DNA from: Ignicoccus hospitalis KIN4/I | GTDB taxonomy: Archaea > Thermoproteota > Thermoprotei_A > Sulfolobales > Ignicoccaceae | Assembly: GCF_000017945.1 (NCBI RefSeq) | Contig: NC_009776.1 | Coordinates: 930,001 to 962,000 of the forward strand | Reading direction: 5' to 3' | DNA length: 32,000 nt | Shown here: positions 19,437-27,104 of the stretch, piece by piece | Layout: the number at the start of each line of letters is the position of its first letter | Numbering within the stretch: the first letter of the stretch is position 1 | Program-made: the position numbers and the translations under genes | Notes under the pieces: generated by a model | Seen by the model: the letters and a program-made list of their open reading frames with translations, nothing else | Databases searched by the model: none | What the model was told of the DNA's origin: nothing

Positions 19437-19512
19437 GCCGCCGTAGCTCAGCCGGCAGAGCGCCGCCCTGGTAAGGCGGAGGTCCCGGGTTCAAGTCCCG
19501 GCGGCGGCTCCA
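19437..19512 (+). tRNA. tRNA-Thr (anticodon GGU) with encoded CCA
   Basis: Folded by hand. Acceptor GCCGCCG/CGGCGGC. D arm GCTC..GAGC. Anticodon stem CCGCC/GGCGG with loop CTGGTAA. Variable loop AGGTC. T arm CCGGG-TTCAAGT-CCCGG. Discriminator T, then CCA. Confidence 0.9.
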
Positions 19513-19912: not shown

Positions 19913-20137
19913 CTACTTATATGCATGTCCTCTAAAATCGATAAGATGTATTATAATAGTCCTGGAGCCCCAATCAATTGTGTATACAATACGGATATCT
20001 CCCAAGCGAGTCTTGAAAGCGTCTTCAAACCCCTTTAGCTTCTTTACGTCGTAATCTCTAAAAGGGATGGGATTCATCTTCAATTTGTCCAGAACCTCCA
20101 ATACTTTAAGCTTGTAATGTTTGGGGAGTCCCTCCAA
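19913..20137 (-). CDS. RelE/ParE-family toxin, possibly frameshifted at the 5' end
   Basis: LPKHYKLKVLEVLDKLKMNP....KKLKGFEDAFKTRLGDIRIVYTIDWGSRTIIIHLIDFRGHAY matches the RelE pattern (KL.G....R.R.GdyRi.Y.i......I..I..R...Y). TTG start. See the finding on the upstream 15-codon ORF. Confidence 0.7.
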   Translation of the reverse strand: MEGLPKHYKLKVLEVLDKLKMNPIPFRDYDVKKLKGFEDAFKTRLGDIRIVYTIDWGSRTIIIHLIDFRGHAYK

Positions 20138-20214
20138 GGCTCTACTAGCCTTACGTTTTACCCTTACTTACTTGGAAGAAGAGGTTACCGCTCAAAATAA
20201 GTTCCCTGTTATTT

Positions 20215-20406
20215 TCATCTCATCAGCTTTCGTTTGATTTCGTCAAGGTCGATTATCTCGTCGTCAGCATCGATTGCCTCGATTTCGTCGGGGAGGGGTT
20301 CTACTTCTTCGATATTCCTTTCGATGATGAAGCGCAACATGCACTCTACCCTAGTCGGCCTCTCCTTTATCTCTCGAATCTCTGATAAGAGTTCAGAGTC
20401 TACCAA
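20215..20406 (-). CDS. putative antitoxin, assigned by its position upstream of the RelE-like gene
   Basis: 63-aa ORF ending about 20-80 nt upstream of the toxin, with an acidic C-terminal half (EEVEPLPDEIEAIDADDEIIDLDE). Family not recognised. Confidence 0.45.
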   Translation of the reverse strand: MVDSELLSEIREIKERPTRVECMLRFIIERNIEEVEPLPDEIEAIDADDEIIDLDEIKRKLMR

Positions 20407-20679
20407 CCCTTATCCTGGGCGTAGTTTTGGTATAGTACGTCCCTAAAATCGGCTTGGAATCGGTGGATGAACAATTGCTTTGGTGTCGCGGGGATTTTGG
20501 AGTGGCGCCGTGTGGGAGCACAACAATATGTAAACGTTCACATCAATGATATGAATATAATCCAAAATGGTAAACAGAATGGATATCAACGATGATGCTA
20601 ATCTACCCAGATATTCACGCTTGGTCCTTGGATACTCTAATAAAGGCGTTTCGTTTCAGCAATACTTGGGTGCGAGCCC

Positions 20680-20907
20680 TTGTCTGAAGCCGAAGATAGA
20701 ATAGTCGTCAATCCTAAAGTTATGGGAGGCAAACCAATAATAAAGGGAACTAGAATTCCTGTGTACTTCATCTTGGAGTTATTATCTAATGGCTGGAGCA
20801 TAGATGACATCTTGAGAGAGTATCCTCACCTCTCGCGAGAAGATGTGCTGGCAGCTATCAAGTACGCTGCCAAGGTTTTGAGGGAGAAAGTTATTGTCAA
20901 AGCCTAG
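20680..20907 (+). CDS. DUF433-family protein (putative antitoxin/HTH)
   Basis: NPKVMGGKPIIKGTRIPVYFILELLSNGWSIDDILREYPHLSREDVLAAIKYA matches the DUF433 signature (GkP.i.GTRipV..il..l..G.s.eeil..yP.l..edi.aal.ya). Confidence 0.8.
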   Translation: MSEAEDRIVVNPKVMGGKPIIKGTRIPVYFILELLSNGWSIDDILREYPHLSREDVLAAIKYAAKVLREKVIVKA

Positions 20908-21265
20908 ACTTCTAGCAGACGAAAATATTCCTCGAACAGCTATCGTTACACTTAGAGAAAAAGGATATGACGTGGTCTCGGTCTGGGAGCTTAGTCCGGG
21001 CATAAGCGACGAAGAAGTTGTAGAGCTGGCTATAAAGGAGAGGAGAATTATAGTAACGTTTGACAAAGACTTTGGAAGAATAGCACGTTTAAATCCTAAT
21101 TTGAATCCCAATACCACAGGAGTGATCCTACTAAGAATACCACCATTAAATCCCATATACGTAGCCGAAAGAATACTCTCAGTATTGGAAAGAATAGAAA
21201 ATCCGTACGGTAAGTTAATCATAGTCAAAAAGGGGGCAATAAAAACAATCACATTACACCAATAG
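20894..21265 (+). CDS. DUF5615 / Mut7-C PIN-like protein (putative toxin partner of DUF433)
   Basis: LLADENIPRTAIVTLREKGYDVVSV......SDEEVVELAIKERRIIVTFDKDF matches the LlDEn....l...L...G.dv......sD.ei...A..e.r.ivT.D.DF pattern. Overlaps the DUF433 gene by 14 nt. Confidence 0.75.
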   Translation: MSKPRLLADENIPRTAIVTLREKGYDVVSVWELSPGISDEEVVELAIKERRIIVTFDKDFGRIARLNPNLNPNTTGVILLRIPPLNPIYVAERILSVLERIENPYGKLIIVKKGAIKTITLHQ

Positions 21266-21347
21266 TTATCTTGGACTATTCACACAGCACCTCATCTACT
21301 GTATTTACACAAATTAGTAAAGATAAGAATATGTAATAATTTTGTGA

Positions 21348-21390
21348 TGGGGGACCGAGGGATTTGAGCCCCAGACCTCCGCCGCGTGAG
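21348..21390 (-). other. tRNA 3'-half-like remnant (anticodon loop to 3' end), not a complete tRNA
   Basis: The minus strand reads CTCACGC-GGCGG-AGGTC-TGGGG-CTCAAAT-CCCTC-GGTCCCC-CA. This has the loop, anticodon-stem 3' arm, variable loop and T-arm layout. The T stem has a mismatch and there is no matching 5' half upstream. Confidence 0.3.
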
Positions 21391-21417
21391 CCCCCCCCTC
21401 CCCCTCCCCCGAGCTAG

Positions 21418-21600
21418 ACGGGTGGGGGGCCGGACGTTAATGGGATCGAGCACACTCCGGCCTTCTCGTCGGACTGCAAGTATGTAGCAGTGGTCGACAA
21501 CTATTGGAACAGCGGGCCGGTCGGAAACAACACGCTTAATGTGTTTGACATCGATAGAAGGCTAGTCTACCCAAGAAGATGCACAGAATTTGGAACGTGA
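21418..21600 (+). pseudogene. possible remnant of a beta-propeller (WD/YVTN-like) protein gene
   Basis: A stop-to-stop 59-codon frame reads ..NGIEHTPAFSSDCKYVAVVDNYWNSGPVGNNTLNVFDIDRRLVYP.. This resembles one propeller blade (fS.DgKYvAv....n.l.vfD). It has no start codon and no N- or C-terminal context. Confidence 0.25.
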
Positions 21601-22149
21601 CGTGATGGGGAATAGATTAGCTATTGGGCACGCGGACGACAGGATCAAGACATACCACGTAGCTCTTTGCCTTCGTTAGCTCGCCTCCTAAGTACAGCCC
21701 TACTCTCTTTAATTTAGACAAGGTGTCAGCGAGCAACTAGATGTACCTTTGATTCGTAGTCGCCTGGTAGGTATATTGTGTATGTGACGAGCGCGTTCCG
21801 GCTTGTTCGGTCCACGTCCTTTCTCCTTATCGTTAACACCCAAGATAGGAGTATTCCGGAAGACCAACCTGCGCTCCCGCTACCTCTCTCCGTGTTCATG
21901 TACATCGTATTTTCGCTGGGCCGGAGCCTTAACCTCCTCTCGTAACCCAAAACCTTCGCTGTTGCGCGTTGCAGCCTACTTTCTCTTTTGTCCGCCGACC
22001 GTTGCTAATCTGTAAAATATCGAATGCTTTTCAGCTTCCCTCTGGGACTCTTGACGCGTTTTCGGATTTTGTTCTGACCGTAGTGGGTCCAAAGTCCGGT
22101 ACCTCAAAGCCCCGTTCCCTACGAAGCCTCTCCTCTGTCCGGTGTGGTC

Positions 22150-22489
22150 CTCGAGGTCCCTTACTTACTGCGTCTACCCAAGAACTTGCTCTCCTTAATT
22201 TAATATTTCACAAACATACTTTCTGTATAACTCATTACCAAACTTTTTCACTTACTCATTTCCTTTTCAACCTTCACCCACATGGGAACATCTTATATTC
22301 GAAAGCGCACCATTACTATTCACTCTCTCAAACCCCCTTATATCTTTTCATGGGAACGCTGAAGATCATGGAGGGAAGGGCAGAGGAAATTTTTCTTGAA
22401 TAAAGGGAAAAGCTTGGGGAATTGTAAACTCGTGGTAGAACGCAATTCTTTTAAGGGAAAGACCTTGGGGCTTTATATGGAAGGGCTCG
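22150..22489 (+). promoter_or_regulatory. putative leader of CRISPR array 1
   Basis: AT-rich, ORF-poor sequence abutting the best-conserved repeat of array 1. Contains a duplicated motif aagggaaa(a)g.cttgggg at 22403-22419 and 22453-22470. Confidence 0.4.
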
Positions 22490-22925
22490 GTGGAGTCTCA
22501 AGAGAGGATAGAAAGTGTTAAACCTAGTTCTAGCTCTCGACACAATTATGTTTTGTGGAGTCTCAAGAGAGGATAGAAAGGATATCGCCGATTTACGGGA
22601 GGGAAGGAGAATTCCTAGTGGAGTCTCAAGAGAGGATAGAAAGGTGAGGTGAAGGTACTGCCTGTTGGCGGAGGCCATCAGCATGTCCTGTGGAGTCTCA
22701 AGAGAGGATAGAAAGTTGACGTTATATACTGTACAGAGGTGTTTAGCATGAGCTTCACGTGGAGTCTCAAGAGAGAATGGAAAGTGATCAACGAGAATGT
22801 ACAAAAGAGCATATAACTGTTCTAAAGTGGAGTTTCAGGAAAGAATGGAAAGTTACTTAACTATCTTTGTCTCGTTCATTTCAATGTTGCTTACCTTCTA
22901 TAGAGCCTTAAGGGAGGATAGAGAG
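22490..22925 (+). CRISPR. CRISPR array 1: 7 repeats of 26 nt (GTGGAGTCTCAAGAGAGGATAGAAAG), 6 spacers
   Basis: Repeats start at 22490, 22555, 22618, 22690, 22759, 22827 and 22900. They differ from the consensus by 0, 0, 0, 0, 2, 5 and 6 nt. Spacers are 39, 37, 46, 43, 42 and 47 nt. Strand is inferred from the 3' ...GAAAG end and from decay toward the right end. Confidence 0.9.
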
Positions 22926-22929
22926 GAAA

Positions 22930-23727
22930 CTACGAACGCACGTGAGGCCCTCGTACGAAATTCATCACTACGTCCCCGAAGCCCGCGGCCCTCCCGCTCC
23001 CCACGCCGAAGAGCGCTGCGTGCGCTATTACCTTCTTCACGTCCTCGTCCGCCTCCCTCACCCAGAACAGCGCCGAGCCGCTGAGGGCGGGCAACCACTT
23101 ACGGTCGTAGTAGTACCAGACCTTCCCGGCGCTGTGTAAGGCAGAGTGGTCCTCCACCAGCGAGCGCTCGAGCTTCCACAAAACTTCTAGATATTTATCC
23201 TTAAACAAGGAGTAGGCGTTGACTGAGAAGAGGTGGGAGGGGGAAGGCAAGAAGCGGGTCCTAAGCTCCTCTCCGGGCCCCCTCCAAGGGTCCCTTAACA
23301 CTGCCGGCCCCCTGAACTTCACCCACAAGCCGCTCCCCTCCCCCAAGTCCAAGTCCACCTCTTCCACCGCCACGGTCTCTATTTCTATTACCTTCCTGCC
23401 GAACTCGAGCTTACAGTAGTCGAAGGAGAAAAGTTTGTTCACCAACTCCTCCGGCCCCGAGAGCTCGAAGCTCGCGTTCGGGGGCAAGGGGACCACCCCC
23501 TTCCCGGAGGGCCTCCCGGCCGTGCAGAAAGAGCACTTGACCGTCCTCTTCGGGTATATCGCCCTCCCTTCTTCGTCCAGCAAGGGCGTTATGTGGAATT
23601 CCTTATATCCCCCTTCAACTGAGAAGATCTTGGCGAAGTCGTCGTCTACGCACGAGAGGAAGCTCTTCACTAACTTCGCCGTGTAATCCTCAAAGGGGAC
23701 CGGGGTCAGCGCGACCTCGACCCTCAC
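22930..23727 (-). CDS. cas6: Cas6 CRISPR repeat endoribonuclease
   Basis: C-terminal glycine-rich loop GVGSGRAAGFGDV and a length typical of Cas6. Proposed GTG start at 23727 overlaps the cas4 TGA as GTGA. The track ORF starts at 23763. Confidence 0.85.
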   Translation of the reverse strand: MRVEVALTPVPFEDYTAKLVKSFLSCVDDDFAKIFSVEGGYKEFHITPLLDEEGRAIYPKRTVKCSFCTAGRPSGKGVVPLPPNASFELSGPEELVNKLFSFDYCKLEFGRKVIEIETVAVEEVDLDLGEGSGLWVKFRGPAVLRDPWRGPGEELRTRFLPSPSHLFSVNAYSLFKDKYLEVLWKLERSLVEDHSALHSAGKVWYYYDRKWLPALSGSALFWVREADEDVKKVIAHAALFGVGSGRAAGFGDVVMNFVRGPHVRS

Positions 23728-24068
23728 CCTTTTGAATCCGGGCAATAGGTCGCGAACGCGCAATTCTCACACCTCGCGGGGAAGTACTTCTTACACGCGG
23801 CCCTCTTTGAGGCCAAGCGCGCGGCTTGATAGTCCCCCTTATACTTAAGCAGCTCCTCAACTACCCCCGCCAAGTCACACTCCACCTTAACGAACGCTAT
23901 ATCTTCCGGCCTGAACAAGGCTACGGCTACCGGCAGGCCGAAGAGCTCGTGCACCCCTTGGGCGTAGAAGGCCAGCCTGGCGGCGGAACTGCACAAGGAA
24001 GCCCTCAAGTCCCCGCTCCTCTGTACTTCAACAATCAACGAGGTTAAGGGCTCCTTGAGCAAGGCCAC
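23724..24068 (-). CDS. cas4: Cas4-like protein, C-terminal part only (likely truncated or inactive)
   Basis: C-terminal Cys cluster CKKYFPARCENCAFATYC (C-x2-C-x5-C plus one extra Cys). The RecB motif region reads LIVEVQRSG, i.e. E-x-Q where E-x-K is expected. Only 114 aa, against about 170-200 aa. The motif-II-like PDYV lies upstream of the GTG start. Confidence 0.6.
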   Translation of the reverse strand: MALLKEPLTSLIVEVQRSGDLRASLCSSAARLAFYAQGVHELFGLPVAVALFRPEDIAFVKVECDLAGVVEELLKYKGDYQAARLASKRAACKKYFPARCENCAFATYCPDSKG

Positions 24069-24390
24069 GTAGTCCGGCCTCCGCGCGCGCCGCTAGCTCC
24101 TCTAACCTCCTCTCCTCTATCCCAGACTCCTTGGCGACGTTCCGGAGGTACTCCCCGCTCACGCCCAGCTTTTCGTAATCGTGTACCGCTCCGGCCCAGA
24201 AGCACTCCTCCCAACTCCCCTCCGGCAAGTAACCTTTCTCTTCTAAGAGTGCGCAGAGCTTAGCGGCCGTAGCGGCGACGGAAGCGAAGTGGTGAAACGC
24301 GGTGACGAAGACGTCGCCGCGCTTCACCAGCTTGAGCGCTTCGTCCCCTAAGAGGTCTCTGACCCTCGCTACCATCTCCTCCAGCGGCAT
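24028..24390 (-). CDS. HD-domain protein resembling only the N-terminal half of the Cas3'' nuclease
   Basis: H motif TAFHHFASVA and HD motif GAVHDYEKLG are spaced as in Cas3 HD domains. The later His/Asp motifs are absent and the tail runs into the cas4 fragment. The ATG at 24390 is preferred; the track TTG is at 24435. Confidence 0.5.
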   Translation of the reverse strand: MPLEEMVARVRDLLGDEALKLVKRGDVFVTAFHHFASVAATAAKLCALLEEKGYLPEGSWEECFWAGAVHDYEKLGVSGEYLRNVAKESGIEERRLEELAARAEAGLRGLAQGALNLVDC

Positions 24391-24486
24391 CCTTCTCCGA
24401 GATAAACTTCGAAACTTCTCAGTAAATATGTTCAAATCGGACTGCTGGGGTCAACCCCCTCGTGGACTGGGAGGTGTAGAGTCAAC

Positions 24487-25419
24487 TTGATTCTCGTCGT
24501 GAGGGGTCACGCGTTCGTCGGTAGGAAAGGTTACATGATAACGGTCAGGTATAAAAAAGACGGAAAGGAAGTAACCGAGGCGTTCCCAGCATTAGACATA
24601 GAAATGGCTGTGTTCGTCGGAAAGGGGATTACGGTGAGCACGGCTGCCCTGCAACTCTTGGAGGAGCAGAACGTGCCCACCTTGTTCCACGGGGTCGACT
24701 GGTCCTTTGTAACGATCAACCCAGTCAAGGTGGGCTGGTCGCGGGCGAGGAAGAACCAATATTCCATGGGGGAGACCGAGCTGGGAGTGAAGGTGGCCAA
24801 AGAGTTTATATTTGGAAAGTTGGAGGGGATGAGCAACGTTGCTAAGAACTTGAGCTACAAGGGGAAGAAACCCACGCCCAACTCGGACTACTGGAGGAGC
24901 GAGGGGAGGGGAGAGCTGGCCTCTTGCAAGAACTTGGACTGCGTCAAGAAGTTGGAGGCGGAGTGGAGCTCCAAGCTCTGGAAGGATATAGTTCAGTTCG
25001 TCCCCGGGATGAGGTCCAGAGTTCCTAGGGGAAACGACCCGCCCAATAGAACCCTAGACTACTTGTATGCCCTATTGTACTCTGTCTGCAACCACGCTCT
25101 GGTCGGGGCCGGTCTAGACCCTTACGCCGGTTTAATACACAGGGAAAGGGCAGGGAAGTTGAGCTTTGTTTACGATTTTAGTGAAATGTTCAAGCCTATG
25201 GCAATTTATGTCATGGCAACCGCGATAAGGACGTATAAAATAGAGCTTGAGGGAGACTTCTTAAACAAGGAAAGCTTACAAAAGGTTACTCAACTGTTCT
25301 ACTCTATTTTCGAGAGTAAGAAGTACTCCGTCAGAAAGTGGGTCTACGCGAAGGCGTGGCAGCTCAGAGATGCAATCGAATCTGGGAAAGAGTTCAAGGC
25401 TTTCGTCTTCCGACCCTAA
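24487..25419 (+). CDS. cas1: Cas1 integrase
   Basis: The Cas1 core is EAEWSSKLW....NRTLDYLYALLYSVCNHALVGAGLDPYAGLIHRERAGKLSFVYDFSEMFKP, with catalytic-type E, H and D/E present. The N-terminal beta domain is present. TTG start, 310 aa. Confidence 0.9.
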   Translation: MILVVRGHAFVGRKGYMITVRYKKDGKEVTEAFPALDIEMAVFVGKGITVSTAALQLLEEQNVPTLFHGVDWSFVTINPVKVGWSRARKNQYSMGETELGVKVAKEFIFGKLEGMSNVAKNLSYKGKKPTPNSDYWRSEGRGELASCKNLDCVKKLEAEWSSKLWKDIVQFVPGMRSRVPRGNDPPNRTLDYLYALLYSVCNHALVGAGLDPYAGLIHRERAGKLSFVYDFSEMFKPMAIYVMATAIRTYKIELEGDFLNKESLQKVTQLFYSIFESKKYSVRKWVYAKAWQLRDAIESGKEFKAFVFRP

Positions 25420-25648: not shown

Positions 25649-27104
25649 GATTAAACGAAAGAGAACTGCAAGCTTGTACTGTGCTAGCTGGGCCGGAGAG
25701 CTCAGTTGCTCGATTAAACGAAAGAGAACTGCAAGACTTGGTTGACGACCTCGTCGAGCTTGTCGTACGCTTGGATTAAACGAAAGAGAACTGCAAGATG
25801 TCGTCACAGTGAAATACATACACCTTCTGCAAATCTGATTAAACGAAAGAGAACTGCAAGATGTCGTCACAGTGAAATACATACACCTTCTGCAAATCTG
25901 ATTAAACGAAAGAGAACTGCAAGATGTCGTCACAGTGAAATACATACACCTTCTGCAAATCTGATTAAACGAAAGAGAACTGCAAGGTTCTTTATCATTC
26001 CATTCCTGCCATACTCTGAGAAACAGATTAAACGAAAGAGAACTGCAAGCCGGTGCACCACACGTTTTCGCCTTCGACCTCGTCCCCGATTAAACGAAAG
26101 AGAACTGCAAGCTGGCGTGATGACGGTCGTACGATGACTATCCTAGAAGATTAAACGAAAGAGAACTGCAAGAGAGCACTATCGAACAGATAGACCTCAA
26201 CGTTTTCAGGATTAAACAAAAGAGAACTGCAAGTGCTAATCTGTTCCAAGGGAACGTCGACGCCATGGCGAAGATTAAACGAAAGAGAACTGCAAGTGGG
26301 TTCTTTCTGCCACCACCGCACACACCTCATGAGCGATTAAACGAAAGAGAACTGCAAGCTAGTGTACGCTTCACCGTGTGAAGACATAATGAGCAGGATT
26401 AAACGAAAGAGAACTGCAAGCTTTGCATTTCCTTCGGCAATGTAGCTCGCTATCGCGATTAAACGAAAGAGAACTGCAAGCGAGGGAATGAGCGGAGGGA
26501 AGCGGGATGAGGAGCGAGGATTAAACGAAAGAGAACTGCAAGATTAGAAGCACCACATGAACGAATCGGTGTGCATCAGGGATTAAACGAAAGAGAACTG
26601 CAAGTATGAATAACGGGTCCTCGATTACTTCTGGGTTGTCTGATTAAACGAAAGAGAACTGCAAGCAATGGCTTACCCAACACGGCCTGAGCGAAGAGGT
26701 CCTTGATTAAACGAAAGAGAACTGCAAGTTTGTCGAGCTCTTGCCAGGATAGACTAGGACAACCGGATTAAACGAAAGAGAACTGCAAGGGGTCTGCTGG
26801 CAGATCGGCGATGTCATCGCAATGGTAGATTAAACGAAAGAGAACTGCAAGTGAATGGCGGGTGCGGGAGATGGTTGAGGAGAAGATGGTAGTGATTAAA
26901 CGAAAGAGAACTGCAGGTAAGTAATATTCTATTAGCATCTTCTTCAAGTTTTCAGATTAAACGAAAGAGAACTGCAAGTATAAGGGCTATGGCATGATGG
27001 TAATGATGATAATGAGATTAAACGAAAAAGAACTGCAAGTCCATATCTACGCCCTTGTCATACATTTCCAAGGCCTTGAAGATTAAACGATAGAAAAGCG
27101 TAAG
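25649..27104 (+). CRISPR. CRISPR array 2: 24 repeats of 24 nt (GATTAAACGAAAGAGAACTGCAAG), 23 spacers of 36-42 nt
   Basis: Repeats were enumerated by hand. The first is 25649-25672 and the last, which is degenerate (gattaaacgatagaaaagcgtaag), is 27081-27104. Single-base variants start at 26210, 26894 and 27016. Spacers 3-5 are identical. Confidence 0.97.

What the first reader, a model, noticed from the sequence alone, without database searches (positions are those of the whole stretch)
23724..24435. Half an HD nuclease joined out of frame to half a Cas4 with E-x-Q instead of E-x-K
**Seen.**
- The 120-135-aa ORF has only the first two HD-domain motifs (AFHHF, VHDYEKLG). It ends in a non-descript tail at 24028.
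- In the +1 frame, open from the TAG at 24096-24094, the sequence reads RRARRPDYVALLKEPLTSLIVEVQRSG...CKKYFPARCENCAFATYC.
- That sequence is the RecB-nuclease motif II/III region plus the C-terminal Fe-S cysteines of Cas4, with no N-terminal ~70-90 aa. The motif III lysine is replaced by glutamine.
- The first usable start (the GTG at 24068) lies after the PDYV aspartate.
- The fragment is still translationally coupled to cas6 through a GTGA overlap.

**Inference.** An internal deletion probably fused the 5' part of a cas3'' gene to the 3' part of cas4 and inactivated both. The alternative is a novel small HD protein plus a mini-Cas4 in which a fourth C-terminal Cys (CKKY) replaces the missing N-terminal Fe-S ligand.
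Basis: partly seen in the sequence, partly recalled or inferred. Interest (0 to 1): 0.65.

Follow-up and report, generated by a model that had tools for sequence, protein, structure and literature searches.

The report
Deletion scar in a CRISPR locus
The two small overlapping genes are the leftover ends of two CRISPR genes (cas10d and a cas4-like gene), joined out of frame when about 6.5 kb of a type I-D CRISPR-Cas operon was deleted in Ignicoccus hospitalis; this is ordinary gene decay, not a new nuclease.

Summary
The window is Ignicoccus hospitalis, genes Igni_1070 to 1073.

ORF1 (24390-24028, minus strand) is the first ~105 codons of cas10d, the HD-bearing large subunit of type I-D. It is not a type I-A cas3''. 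ORF2 (24092/24068-23724) is the last ~118 codons of a divergent Cas4-like gene.

Intact relatives, including Ignicoccus pacificus, have the order cas1 | cas10d-csc2-csc1-cas3'-cas2-cas4-cas6. Profiles built from them match the window only at Cas10d positions 7-119 (E 1e-33) and Cas4 positions 85-196 (E 1.4e-34). The two pieces meet at a 6-nt microhomology, GAGGCC (24081-24076).

About 6.5 kb is therefore missing: most of cas10d, all of csc2, csc1, cas3' and cas2, and the 5' part of cas4. Independent assemblies give the identical sequence, so this is not a sequencing error.

E-x-Q and the extra cysteine are also present in intact orthologues. They are family traits, not lesions or compensations.

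Published proteomics detects Cas6 but neither stub.

A metagenomic relative carries an independent deletion with different breakpoints, and I. islandicus keeps only cas6.

Verdict: a gene remnant. The deletion idea is right; the gene identity and subtype are wrong. Interest is low to moderate.

The parts
24487..25419 (+). cas1 (Igni_1073), intact and divergently transcribed from the stub operon
   Evidence: Pfam Cas_Cas1 7e-42 and TIGR00287 3e-36. 76% identical over its full length to the Cas1 of the intact locus L013. Zero spectra in the published proteome.
24391..24486 (.). cas1/cas10d intergenic region, presumed to hold the divergent promoters
   Evidence: Its position is the same as in the intact loci L013, L014, L015 and L020. 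The sequence is not conserved. The promoter role is inferred.
24076..24390 (-). cas10d 5' remnant: the first 105 codons of ORF1 (Igni_1072), carrying HD motif I (AFHHF) and motif II (VHDYEKLG)
   Evidence: The Cas10d profile (A5) matches at positions 7-119 of 861, E 1e-33. tblastn to L013 Cas10d aa 12-119 gives 54% identity, 2e-23. The profile itself hits PDB 6THH (Cas10d) at 2.8e-234.
24076..24081 (-). Deletion junction: the 6-nt microhomology GAGGCC. It reads E-A in the cas10d frame and (R)-P in the cas4 frame.
   Evidence: Relatives have GCC GAG GCC in cas10d (L013, L020) and GGG AGG CCG GAC in cas4 (L017, L015).
24028..24075 (-). Tail of ORF1: cas4 sequence read in the wrong frame (GLRGLAQGALNLVDC, then stop)
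   Evidence: Read directly from the sequence. Cas10d homology ends at 24076.
24093..24095 (-). TAG that closes the cas4 frame upstream; it lies inside cas10d-derived sequence
   Evidence: Sequence.
23724..24080 (-). cas4-like 3' remnant (Igni_1071). It carries motif II (RPDYV), E-V-Q, FYAQG and C-x7-C-x2-C-x5-C. The first start codon is the GTG at 24068.
   Evidence: The profile of five intact orthologues matches at positions 85-196 of 198, E 1.4e-34. The exhaustive HMMER search found P0003-P0008. tblastn to L013 Cas4 aa 87-212 gives 48% identity, 2e-30.
23724..23727 (-). GTGA overlap of the cas4 stop with the cas6 start
   Evidence: Sequence. The same 4-nt overlap is present in L013.
22930..23727 (-). 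cas6 (Igni_1070), intact and expressed
   Evidence: 72% identical over its full length to L013 Cas6. TIGR01877 at 6e-6 and PF10040 at 1.5e-4. 43 and 21 spectral counts in the proteome.
22490..22933 (+). CRISPR array A: 7 repeats of GTGGAGTCTCAAGAGAGGATAGAAAG, which degenerate towards cas6
   Evidence: The intact relative L020 has an A-type array in the same place beside cas6.
25649..27104 (+). CRISPR array B: 24 repeats of GATTAAACGAAAGAGAACTGCAAG, beside cas1
   Evidence: I. pacificus, L015 and L020 have the closely related repeat GATGATACGAAAGAGAACTGAAAG next to their I-D cas1.

Best explanation
The region is the scar of a deletion of about 6.5 kb inside a type I-D CRISPR-Cas operon of Ignicoccus hospitalis.

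**Ancestral locus.** It was array B | cas1 <-> cas10d-csc2-csc1-cas3'-cas2-cas4-cas6 | array A. This arrangement is still seen in I. pacificus and in several metagenome-assembled relatives.

**The deletion.**
- It ran from cas10d codon ~120 to cas4 codon ~86.
- It joined the two genes at a 6-nt microhomology (GAGGCC), one base out of frame.

**What is left.**
- ORF1 (Igni_1072) is Cas10d residues 1 to ~105 in this genome's numbering. It carries HD motifs I and II and lacks the motif V Asp, the rest of the HD domain, the RRM domains, the zinc finger and the C-terminal domains. A 15-codon tail follows, which is cas4 read in the wrong frame.
- ORF2 (Igni_1071) is the C-terminal ~118 residues of a divergent Cas4-like protein. 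It lacks the first Fe-S cysteine and the N-terminal ~85 residues.
- Neither fragment can form its domain, and both are most likely non-functional as proteins.

**What still works (inferred).** The stub DNA keeps the cas10d promoter and 5' end and the cas4-cas6 overlap. The intact cas6 is therefore still transcribed and translated. Its product probably supplies crRNAs to the type I-A and type III-B complexes encoded elsewhere in the genome.

**Shown:** homology, breakpoints, absence of the intervening genes, reproducibility of the sequence, presence of Cas6 protein and absence of stub peptides.

**Inferred:** a single microhomology-mediated event, its recency, the promoter role of the stub, and use of Cas6 in trans.
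For: **Synteny with intact relatives**
- L013, L014 (I. pacificus, CP006868.1), L015, L020 and L022-24 carry cas10d-csc2-csc1-cas3'-cas2-cas4-cas6. Cas1 lies divergently upstream wherever the contig reaches that far.
- L020 even has the same pairing of a B-type array beside cas1 and an A-type array beside cas6.

**Breakpoints**
- tblastn of the L013 proteins against the window gives:
  - Cas1, 76% identity, full length;
  - Cas10d aa 12-119 at 24384-24076;
  - Cas4 aa 87-212 at 24077-23727;
  - Cas6, 72% identity, full length;
  - nothing for Csc2, Csc1, Cas3' or Cas2.
- The profile HMMs give Cas10d positions 7-119 (1e-33) and Cas4 positions 85-196 (1.4e-34). No other hit appears in any frame of the 32 kb.
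- The predicted loss is 6470-6494 bp in three relatives, and the microhomology is GAGGCC.

**Identity of the parent genes**
- The Cas10d profile hits PDB 6THH at 2.8e-234.
- Csc2 (TIGR03157) and the I-D Cas3' (TIGR03158) score above their cut-offs.

**Not an error**
- Two independent assemblies are identical to the window.

**Expression**
- In the proteome of PMC3149612, Iho_1070 (Cas6) has 43 and 21 spectra, while Iho_1071 and Iho_1072 have 0.
- I-A and III-B systems are present elsewhere in the genome.

**Pattern across relatives**
- An independent deletion in L012 joins Cas10d position ~289 to Cas4 position ~56.
- I. islandicus has a solo cas6.
- The same Cas6 clade sits beside type I-A genes in L025.
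Against: - Both fragments are free of internal stops and frameshifts.
- They are no more diverged from L013 (58% and 53%) than intact orthologues are from each other (54-68% and 47-49%). Relaxed selection is therefore not demonstrated. This fits a recent deletion but does not exclude retained function.
- Absence from a shotgun proteome is weak evidence for proteins of 104-120 aa.
- No transcript data were available.
- No I. hospitalis-lineage genome with the intact locus was found, so a single-step deletion cannot be distinguished from successive events.
Confidence: 0.9

Rival explanations
1. The two ORFs are genuine small proteins: a minimal HD protein and a mini-Cas4 whose fourth C-terminal cysteine replaces the lost N-terminal Fe-S ligand. 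On this reading the deletion created new functional products that have since been retained.
For: - Both reading frames are intact.
- Both are about as conserved relative to L013 as intact genes are to each other.
- ORF2 retains four cysteines.
Against: - The extra Cys predates the truncation. The intact P0003 has ACHEYWRPLCESC and also its N-terminal Cys.
- No family of short orthologues exists among 1.84 billion representative proteins. The only other short member (P0004) is a gene-caller truncation of a different deletion product whose frame is open further upstream.
- The HD stub lacks the motif V Asp and about a third of the HD domain. In PMC7689449 that domain spans residues ~1-186.
- Both have zero spectra in the proteome.
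Confidence: 0.05
2. The present arrangement arose through several successive events, not one deletion. One example is an L012-like smaller deletion followed by further erosion; another is an inversion followed by a deletion.
For: - The L012 deletion (Cas10d ~289 to Cas4 ~56) is nested inside the I. hospitalis one.
- Some relatives (L017, L005) have the effector block inverted relative to cas2-cas4-cas6.
Against: - I. hospitalis clusters with the intact L013 and L017, while L012 clusters with L016, so a shared ancestral deletion is unlikely (short NJ tree, no bootstrap).
- A clean 6-nt microhomology at the junction fits one event.
- The closest relatives have the collinear order.
Confidence: 0.1
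3. A programmed ribosomal frameshift in the 24092-24028 overlap produces a single HD-Cas4 fusion protein.
For: The two frames overlap by 41-65 nt on the same strand.
Against: - The two halves come from genes that lie 6.5 kb apart in every intact relative.
- A fusion would join two incomplete domains.
- No homologous fusion exists.
- No peptides were detected.
Confidence: 0.01
4. A sequencing or assembly artefact in the reference genome created the frameshift or the deletion.
For: None found.
Against: Independent Logan assemblies of ERR9765779 and SRR4136252 are identical through the whole region.
Confidence: 0.01

Closest known systems
Type I-D CRISPR-Cas loci (Cas10d/Csc3, Csc2, Csc1, Cas3', Cas6, Cas4, Cas1, Cas2), e.g. 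Sulfolobus islandicus LAL14/1 (Cas10d structure 6THH, PMC7689449) and the intact locus of Ignicoccus pacificus CP006868.1
   Same: - The flanking genes are the same: cas1 is divergent and cas6 follows cas4.
- The CRISPR repeat family is the same.
- ORF1 is the N-terminal HD of Cas10d, and ORF2 is the C-terminus of the locus's cas4.
   Different: - Of the interference module and cas2, only 105 codons of cas10d and 118 codons of cas4 remain.
- The locus cannot form a I-D Cascade.
Cas4 (PF01930 / TIGR00372; PD-(D/E)XK nuclease with an Fe-S cluster)
   Same: The family to which ORF2 belongs shares these features with Cas4:
- an N-terminal CP(L/M)R cysteine;
- the GRPD aspartate;
- a glutamate 15 residues downstream;
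- C-x2-C-x5-C at the C-terminus;
- a position between cas2 and cas6.

P0008 aligns end to end with TIGR00372 (5.7e-5). The Foldseek top hits are RecE and EXO5.
   Different: - All profile scores are below the curated cut-offs.
- The motif III lysine is absent in every member (E-V-Q or E-V-V-Q).
- The window copy additionally lacks the N-terminal 85 residues.
   Same: An HD-type N-terminal topology. PMC7689449 notes that the Cas10d HD resembles Cas3'' in helices alpha1-alpha3.
   Different: - There is no significant hit to any Cas3 HD profile.
- The significant homologue is Cas10d.
- The genome's real I-A HD gene is Iho_1136, elsewhere in the genome.
Degraded or partial CRISPR-Cas loci with orphan arrays and stand-alone cas6
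   Same: The effector genes are lost while the arrays and the processing enzyme are kept.
   Different: Here both breakpoints can be mapped to the codon, and the remnants are still annotated as two hypothetical proteins.

Membership tests
[quoted passage not shown] | Full-length Cas10d large subunit (HD + RRM + zinc finger + C-terminal domain) | tested here: not met
   Only profile positions 7-119 of 861 are present in the window, in any frame.
[quoted passage not shown] | Csc2 (Cas7d), Csc1 (Cas5d) and the Cas3' helicase | tested here: not met
   tblastn of the L013 Csc2, Csc1, Cas3' and Cas2 proteins finds nothing in the window at E<=0.1.
[quoted passage not shown] | Associated cas1, cas6 and cognate CRISPR arrays | tested here: met
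   Cas1 is 76% and Cas6 is 72% identical to those of the intact I-D locus L013. Repeat B matches the I. pacificus I-D repeat. The pairing of arrays is as in L020.
Cas10d HD nuclease domain | Motif I (His) and motif II (His-Asp) | tested here: met
   AFHHF and VHDYEK align to the invariant F48, H49 and H86, D87 columns of the Cas10d alignment.
Cas10d HD nuclease domain | Motif V Asp and the remaining helices of the ~186-residue HD domain | tested here: not met
   Homology ends at profile position 119. The invariant L136, D138 and S142 columns lie in the deleted part. The domain extent is taken from PMC7689449.
Cas3'' (type I-A HD nuclease) | Significant match to Cas3 HD profiles, and a type I-A gene neighbourhood | tested here: not met
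   The Pfam HD hit has E 0.087 and there is no NCBIfam Cas3 hit. The neighbours are of I-D type, and the I-A locus is elsewhere at Iho_1132-1141.
Cas4 (PF01930 / TIGR00372) | Profile score above the curated cut-off | tested here: not met
   ORF2 has no hit. Among intact relatives the best hits are TIGR00372 at 23 bits against a cut-off of 65 and PF01930 at E 0.0012 in 2 of 7 members.
Cas4 (PF01930 / TIGR00372) | Four Fe-S cysteines: one N-terminal plus C-x2-C-x5-C at the C-terminus | tested here: not met
   The window copy has the three C-terminal Cys (invariant C198, C201, C207) but lacks the N-terminal CP(L/M)R Cys, which is present in the five full-length relatives P0003 and P0005-P0008.
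Cas4 (PF01930 / TIGR00372) | RecB motif II Asp and motif III E-x-K | tested here: not met
   The Asp (RPD) and the Glu are invariant. The Lys is replaced in every member by E-V-Q or E-V-V-Q.
Cas4 (PF01930 / TIGR00372) | PD-(D/E)XK fold | tested here: inconclusive
   The AlphaFold model of P0003 has pLDDT 68.5. The Foldseek top hits are RecE and human EXO5 at E 3.7e-3, with TM-scores of 0.34-0.39.
Cas4 (PF01930 / TIGR00372) | Fe-S cluster binding and nuclease activity | not testable with these tools
   Requires purified protein.

The most novel reading that the evidence does not exclude
The scar may be one instance of a recurrent and possibly selected pathway. In this pathway Ignicoccus-type I-D loci shed their interference genes but always keep cas6, which becomes the crRNA-processing enzyme for type I-A or type III systems.

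- The instances seen are the I. hospitalis stub, the independent L012 stub and the I. islandicus solo cas6.
- In L025 the same Cas6 clade sits beside type I-A genes.
- On this reading the stubs are retained because they carry the promoter and the coupled start of cas6.

Separately, the parent Cas4-like family universally lacks the motif III lysine (E-V-Q). It could be either a BglII-like E-x-Q active site or a non-catalytic Cas4.
Probability: 0.3. Interest if true: 0.45.

Novelty: new member of a known kind. Interest (0 to 1): 0.27.

Why it matters
- **Annotation.** It corrects two 'hypothetical proteins' (Igni_1071 and Igni_1072) in a model symbiosis host. I. hospitalis has lost type I-D interference but kept that locus's Cas6, Cas1 and two arrays.
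- **Reading crRNA and proteome data.** The detected Cas6 comes from a decayed I-D locus, whereas the functional effectors are I-A and III-B.
- **Two leads beyond the scar.**
  - A small, divergent I-D Cas4-like family has no motif III lysine.
  - cas6 is repeatedly retained after loss of the effector genes in Ignicoccus relatives.

Tried and rejected
- **Direct Pfam and NCBIfam scans of the two ORFs** gave nothing significant (HD at E 0.087).
- **The word-indexed search of 5.8 billion proteins** returned only self-hits for both ORFs.
- **phmmer and a family profile against PDB sequences** gave nothing for ORF1, ORF2 or the Cas4-like family.
- **BLASTP of ORF2 against the Caldisphaera I-D Cas4-like protein** was not significant.
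- **Two metagenome-contig scans** (Cas4 alignment, Cas6 alignment) found no relatives.
- **The genome-contig scan with Cas1** returned only distant loci (35-44% identity). These still gave the first clue, a weak hit of ORF1 to Cas10d N-termini.
- **dN/dS.** Synonymous sites are saturated (pS 0.55-0.92). Relaxed selection on the stubs could be neither shown nor excluded.
- **Alignment of the cas1-cas10d intergenic regions** showed no conserved promoter elements.
- **Rejected readings:** a cas3''/type I-A origin, E-x-Q as an inactivating mutation, the fourth Cys as compensation, a programmed frameshift, and a sequencing error.
Full report
**1. What is in the sequence**

- On the minus strand, ORF1 runs from 24435 (TTG) or 24390 (ATG) to 24028. 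It contains AFHHF and VHDYEKLG.
- A second frame is open from the codon after the TAG at 24095-24093 down to the TGA at 23726-23724. It reads RRARRPDYVALLKEPLTSLIVEVQRSG...CKKYFPARCENCAFATYCPDSKG.
- The first start codon of this second frame is the GTG at 24068.
- The neighbours are as follows:

| Feature | Coordinates | Note |
|---|---|---|
| cas6 | 23727-22930, minus | its GTG overlaps the ORF2 stop as GTGA |
| cas1 | 24487-25419, plus | divergent from the stub operon |
| CRISPR array A | 22490-22933 | 7 repeats |
| CRISPR array B | 25649-27104 | 24 repeats, a different repeat sequence |

**2. The organism, and whether the sequence is an error**

- The self-hit cluster sits on a contig of 1,297,538 bp.
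- The gene order and protein lengths match Iho_1067 to Iho_1078 in the Ignicoccus hospitalis proteome table of PMC3149612.
- The assignments are therefore cas6 = Igni_1070, ORF2 = Igni_1071, ORF1 = Igni_1072 and cas1 = Igni_1073.
- Two independent Logan assemblies (ERR9765779, SRR4136252) are 100% identical to the window across the whole region. The frame arrangement is real.

**3. First searches**

- Pfam and NCBIfam give nothing significant for either ORF (HD at E 0.087).
- The word-indexed protein search finds only the query itself.
- PDB sequence searches find nothing.

**4. The decisive evidence: intact relatives**

- A genome scan with Cas1 brought in distant loci. There, ORF1 weakly hit the N-terminus of 834-859-aa proteins that lie next to csc2.
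- The exhaustive HMMER search with ORF2 found six relatives, P0003 to P0008. In five of them, which are 198-283 aa long, ORF2 matches only the C-terminal ~115-125 residues.
- The contexts of these relatives show the same operon:
  - The order is cas1 (divergent) | cas10d (~855-904 aa) - csc2 - csc1 - cas3' - cas2 - cas4-like - cas6.
  - It is seen in L013 (JGI metagenome), L014 (CP006868.1, Ignicoccus pacificus; the name is confirmed), L015, L020 and L022-24.
  - In L017 and L018 the effector block is inverted.
- The subtype is established independently:
  - Csc2 (TIGR03157, 156 bits against a cut-off of 38) and the I-D Cas3' (TIGR03158, 70.4 against 69.1) pass their curated cut-offs.
  - A profile of the large subunits hits the solved Sulfolobus islandicus Cas10d (6THH) at 2.8e-234 over its full length.
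- L020 has the same pairing of arrays as the window: a B-type repeat beside cas1 and an A-type repeat beside cas6. The I. pacificus locus is flanked by B-type repeats.

**5. Breakpoints**

tblastn of the L013 proteins against the window gives:

| L013 protein | Match in the window | Identity, E |
|---|---|---|
| Cas1 | full length | 76% |
| Cas10d aa 12-119 | 24384-24076 | 54%, 2e-23 |
| Cas4 aa 87-212 | 24077-23727 | 48%, 2e-30 |
| Cas6 | full length | 72% |
| Csc2, Csc1, Cas3', Cas2 | none | - |

- Profile HMMs searched against all six-frame pieces of the 32-kb window match only Cas10d positions 7-119 of 861 (E 1e-33) and Cas4-like positions 85-196 of 198 (E 1.4e-34).
- The two homologies abut at GAGGCC (24081-24076).
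  - Relatives carry GCC GAG GCC (A-E-A) at that point of cas10d.
  - Relatives carry GG(G) AGG CC(G) GAC (G-R-P-D) at that point of cas4.
  - The junction therefore lies in a 6-nt microhomology that is in different frames in the two genes. This explains the out-of-frame fusion.
- The predicted loss is 6470-6494 bp in three collinear relatives.
- The 'non-descript tail' of ORF1 (24075-24028) is cas4 read in the wrong frame.
- The RRARR before PDYV in ORF2 is cas10d read in the wrong frame.

**6. Consequences for the two fragments**

- ORF1 keeps HD motifs I and II.
- According to PMC7689449, the Cas10d HD domain spans about residues 1-186 and is defined by motifs I, II and V.
- The invariant Asp of the LxD motif (D138 in L013 numbering) and everything after it are deleted.
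- ORF2 lacks the N-terminal ~85 residues. These include the conserved CP(L/M)R cysteine and the DPGxRGxRT block.

**7. E-x-Q and the fourth cysteine are family traits**

- All intact orthologues have VEVQ(M/Q)T or VEVVQT at this position, and none has a lysine.
- The closest intact orthologue, P0003, has the same additional cysteine (ACHEYWRPLCESC against ACKKYFPARCENC) and also its N-terminal cysteine. The extra Cys is therefore not a compensation for truncation.
- The family is only distantly related to Cas4:
  - TIGR00372 at 5.7e-5, below its cut-off, but aligned end to end;
  - PF01930 at E 0.0012 in 2 of 7 members;
  - an AlphaFold model of moderate quality (pLDDT 68.5) whose best Foldseek hits are RecE and the Cas4-like human EXO5 at E 3.7e-3.
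- From general knowledge, E-x-Q active sites exist in the PD-(D/E)XK superfamily, for example in BglII. Loss of the Lys therefore does not by itself prove that the intact proteins are inactive. This was not tested here.

**8. Are the stubs functional?**

- Against function:
  - Both domains are incomplete.
  - There are no short orthologues with the same architecture.
  - Both have zero spectral counts in a proteome that detected the downstream Cas6 at 43 and 21 counts.
- Not decisive:
  - The fragments contain no internal stops.
  - Their identity to L013 (58% and 53%) lies within the range seen between intact orthologues (54-68% and 47-49%).
  - Synonymous sites are saturated, so dN/dS cannot resolve recent relaxation.
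- The simplest reading is a deletion that is recent relative to the divergence of these lineages. This is an inference.

**9. What still works**

- cas6 is intact and its protein is detected.
- The genome has a complete type I-A locus (Iho_1132-1141) and a type III-B locus (Iho_0326-0329) elsewhere.
- The only other arCOG01440 Cas6 paralogue found in the table (Iho_1151) was not detected.
- I infer that the stub DNA now serves as the promoter-proximal leader of cas6, through the cas10d promoter and 5' end and the conserved GTGA overlap. I also infer that this Cas6 feeds the other effector complexes.
- Comparative observations are consistent with this:
  - In L012 an independent deletion joins Cas10d position ~289 to Cas4 position ~56 and is again followed by cas6. 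An NJ tree groups I. hospitalis with the intact L013 and L017, and L012 with L016 (short alignment, no bootstrap).
  - I. islandicus has a solo cas6 orthologue with no cas10d or cas4 remnant within 10 kb.
  - In L025 the same Cas6 clade sits beside type I-A csa5-cas7 genes.

**10. Verdict**

- This is an ordinary, well-resolved case of CRISPR-Cas locus decay.
- No paper in the searched library mentions these locus tags or an Ignicoccus I-D remnant.
- Interest is low to moderate. The side observations, a lysine-less Cas4-like family and repeated retention of cas6, are the more interesting leads.

Noticed in passing
L012 1-1180 (ENA ERZ27262668 k141_493598): A second, independent cas10d::cas4 deletion with different breakpoints (Cas10d profile ~289 joined to Cas4 profile ~56). 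It is also out of frame and is followed by cas6. The 117-aa call P0004 is a gene-caller truncation, because the frame is open from position 257.
   Followed up: yes
L019 10001-10822 (Ignicoccus islandicus CP006867.1): A solo cas6 orthologue (59% identity) next to alanyl-tRNA synthetase. No cas10d or cas4 remnant and no A/B-type repeats lie within 10 kb on either side. Across the three Ignicoccus species the states are intact I-D (pacificus), stub (hospitalis) and cas6 only (islandicus).
   Followed up: partly
L025 2415-3826 (GCA_054020855.1): A Cas6 of the same clade (59% identity) lies divergently next to the type I-A genes csa5 and cas7 (DevR). This suggests the Cas6 clade also serves type I-A systems.
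   Followed up: no
window 25774-25986: Three identical repeat-spacer units (63-nt period, 100% identity) in array B. The Logan assembly L001 differs from the window only in this stretch.
   Followed up: no
window 22490-22933 and 25649-27104; L020 1-24 and 9446-9887: The two arrays flanking the remnant have different repeats: A is GTGGAGTCTCAAGAGAGGATAGAAAG and B is GATTAAACGAAAGAGAACTGCAAG. The intact relative L020 has the same A and B pairing. Whether a single Cas6 processes both repeats is unknown.
   Followed up: partly
window 21266-22490: About 1.2 kb without a convincing ORF lies between the PIN gene and array A. It contains a stretch resembling the 3' half of a tRNA at about 21345-21400 and a partial B-repeat-like match at 21473-21495. 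This may be an integration or array scar.
   Followed up: no
window 19913-21265: A cluster of toxin-antitoxin-type genes (RelE family Iho_1067, DUF433 Iho_1068, PIN Iho_1069) lies next to the CRISPR remnant, just after tRNA-Thr (19437-19512). None was detected in the proteome.
   Followed up: no
window 24487-25419: The I-D-type cas1 (Igni_1073) is intact (76% identical to L013) but has lost its cognate cas2 and cas4. It had zero spectral counts. Whether it is still used is unknown. The type I-A locus has its own cas1, cas2 and cas4 (Iho_1133-1135), which were also undetected.
   Followed up: partly
L005 18476-19216; L006 10892-11638: The Cas4-like genes of the Caldisphaera and Vulcanisaeta I-D loci have E-F-T at the ExK position, so they also lack the lysine. 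Their listed ORFs are over-extended through cas2 in another frame.
   Followed up: no
L015 7980-8831; L021 1795-2676; L022 3745-4596: In several relatives the gene before cas6 is 283-293 aa long and no separate cas2 is called. The N-terminal ~85 residues may be cas2 read in another frame, or a fusion.
   Followed up: no
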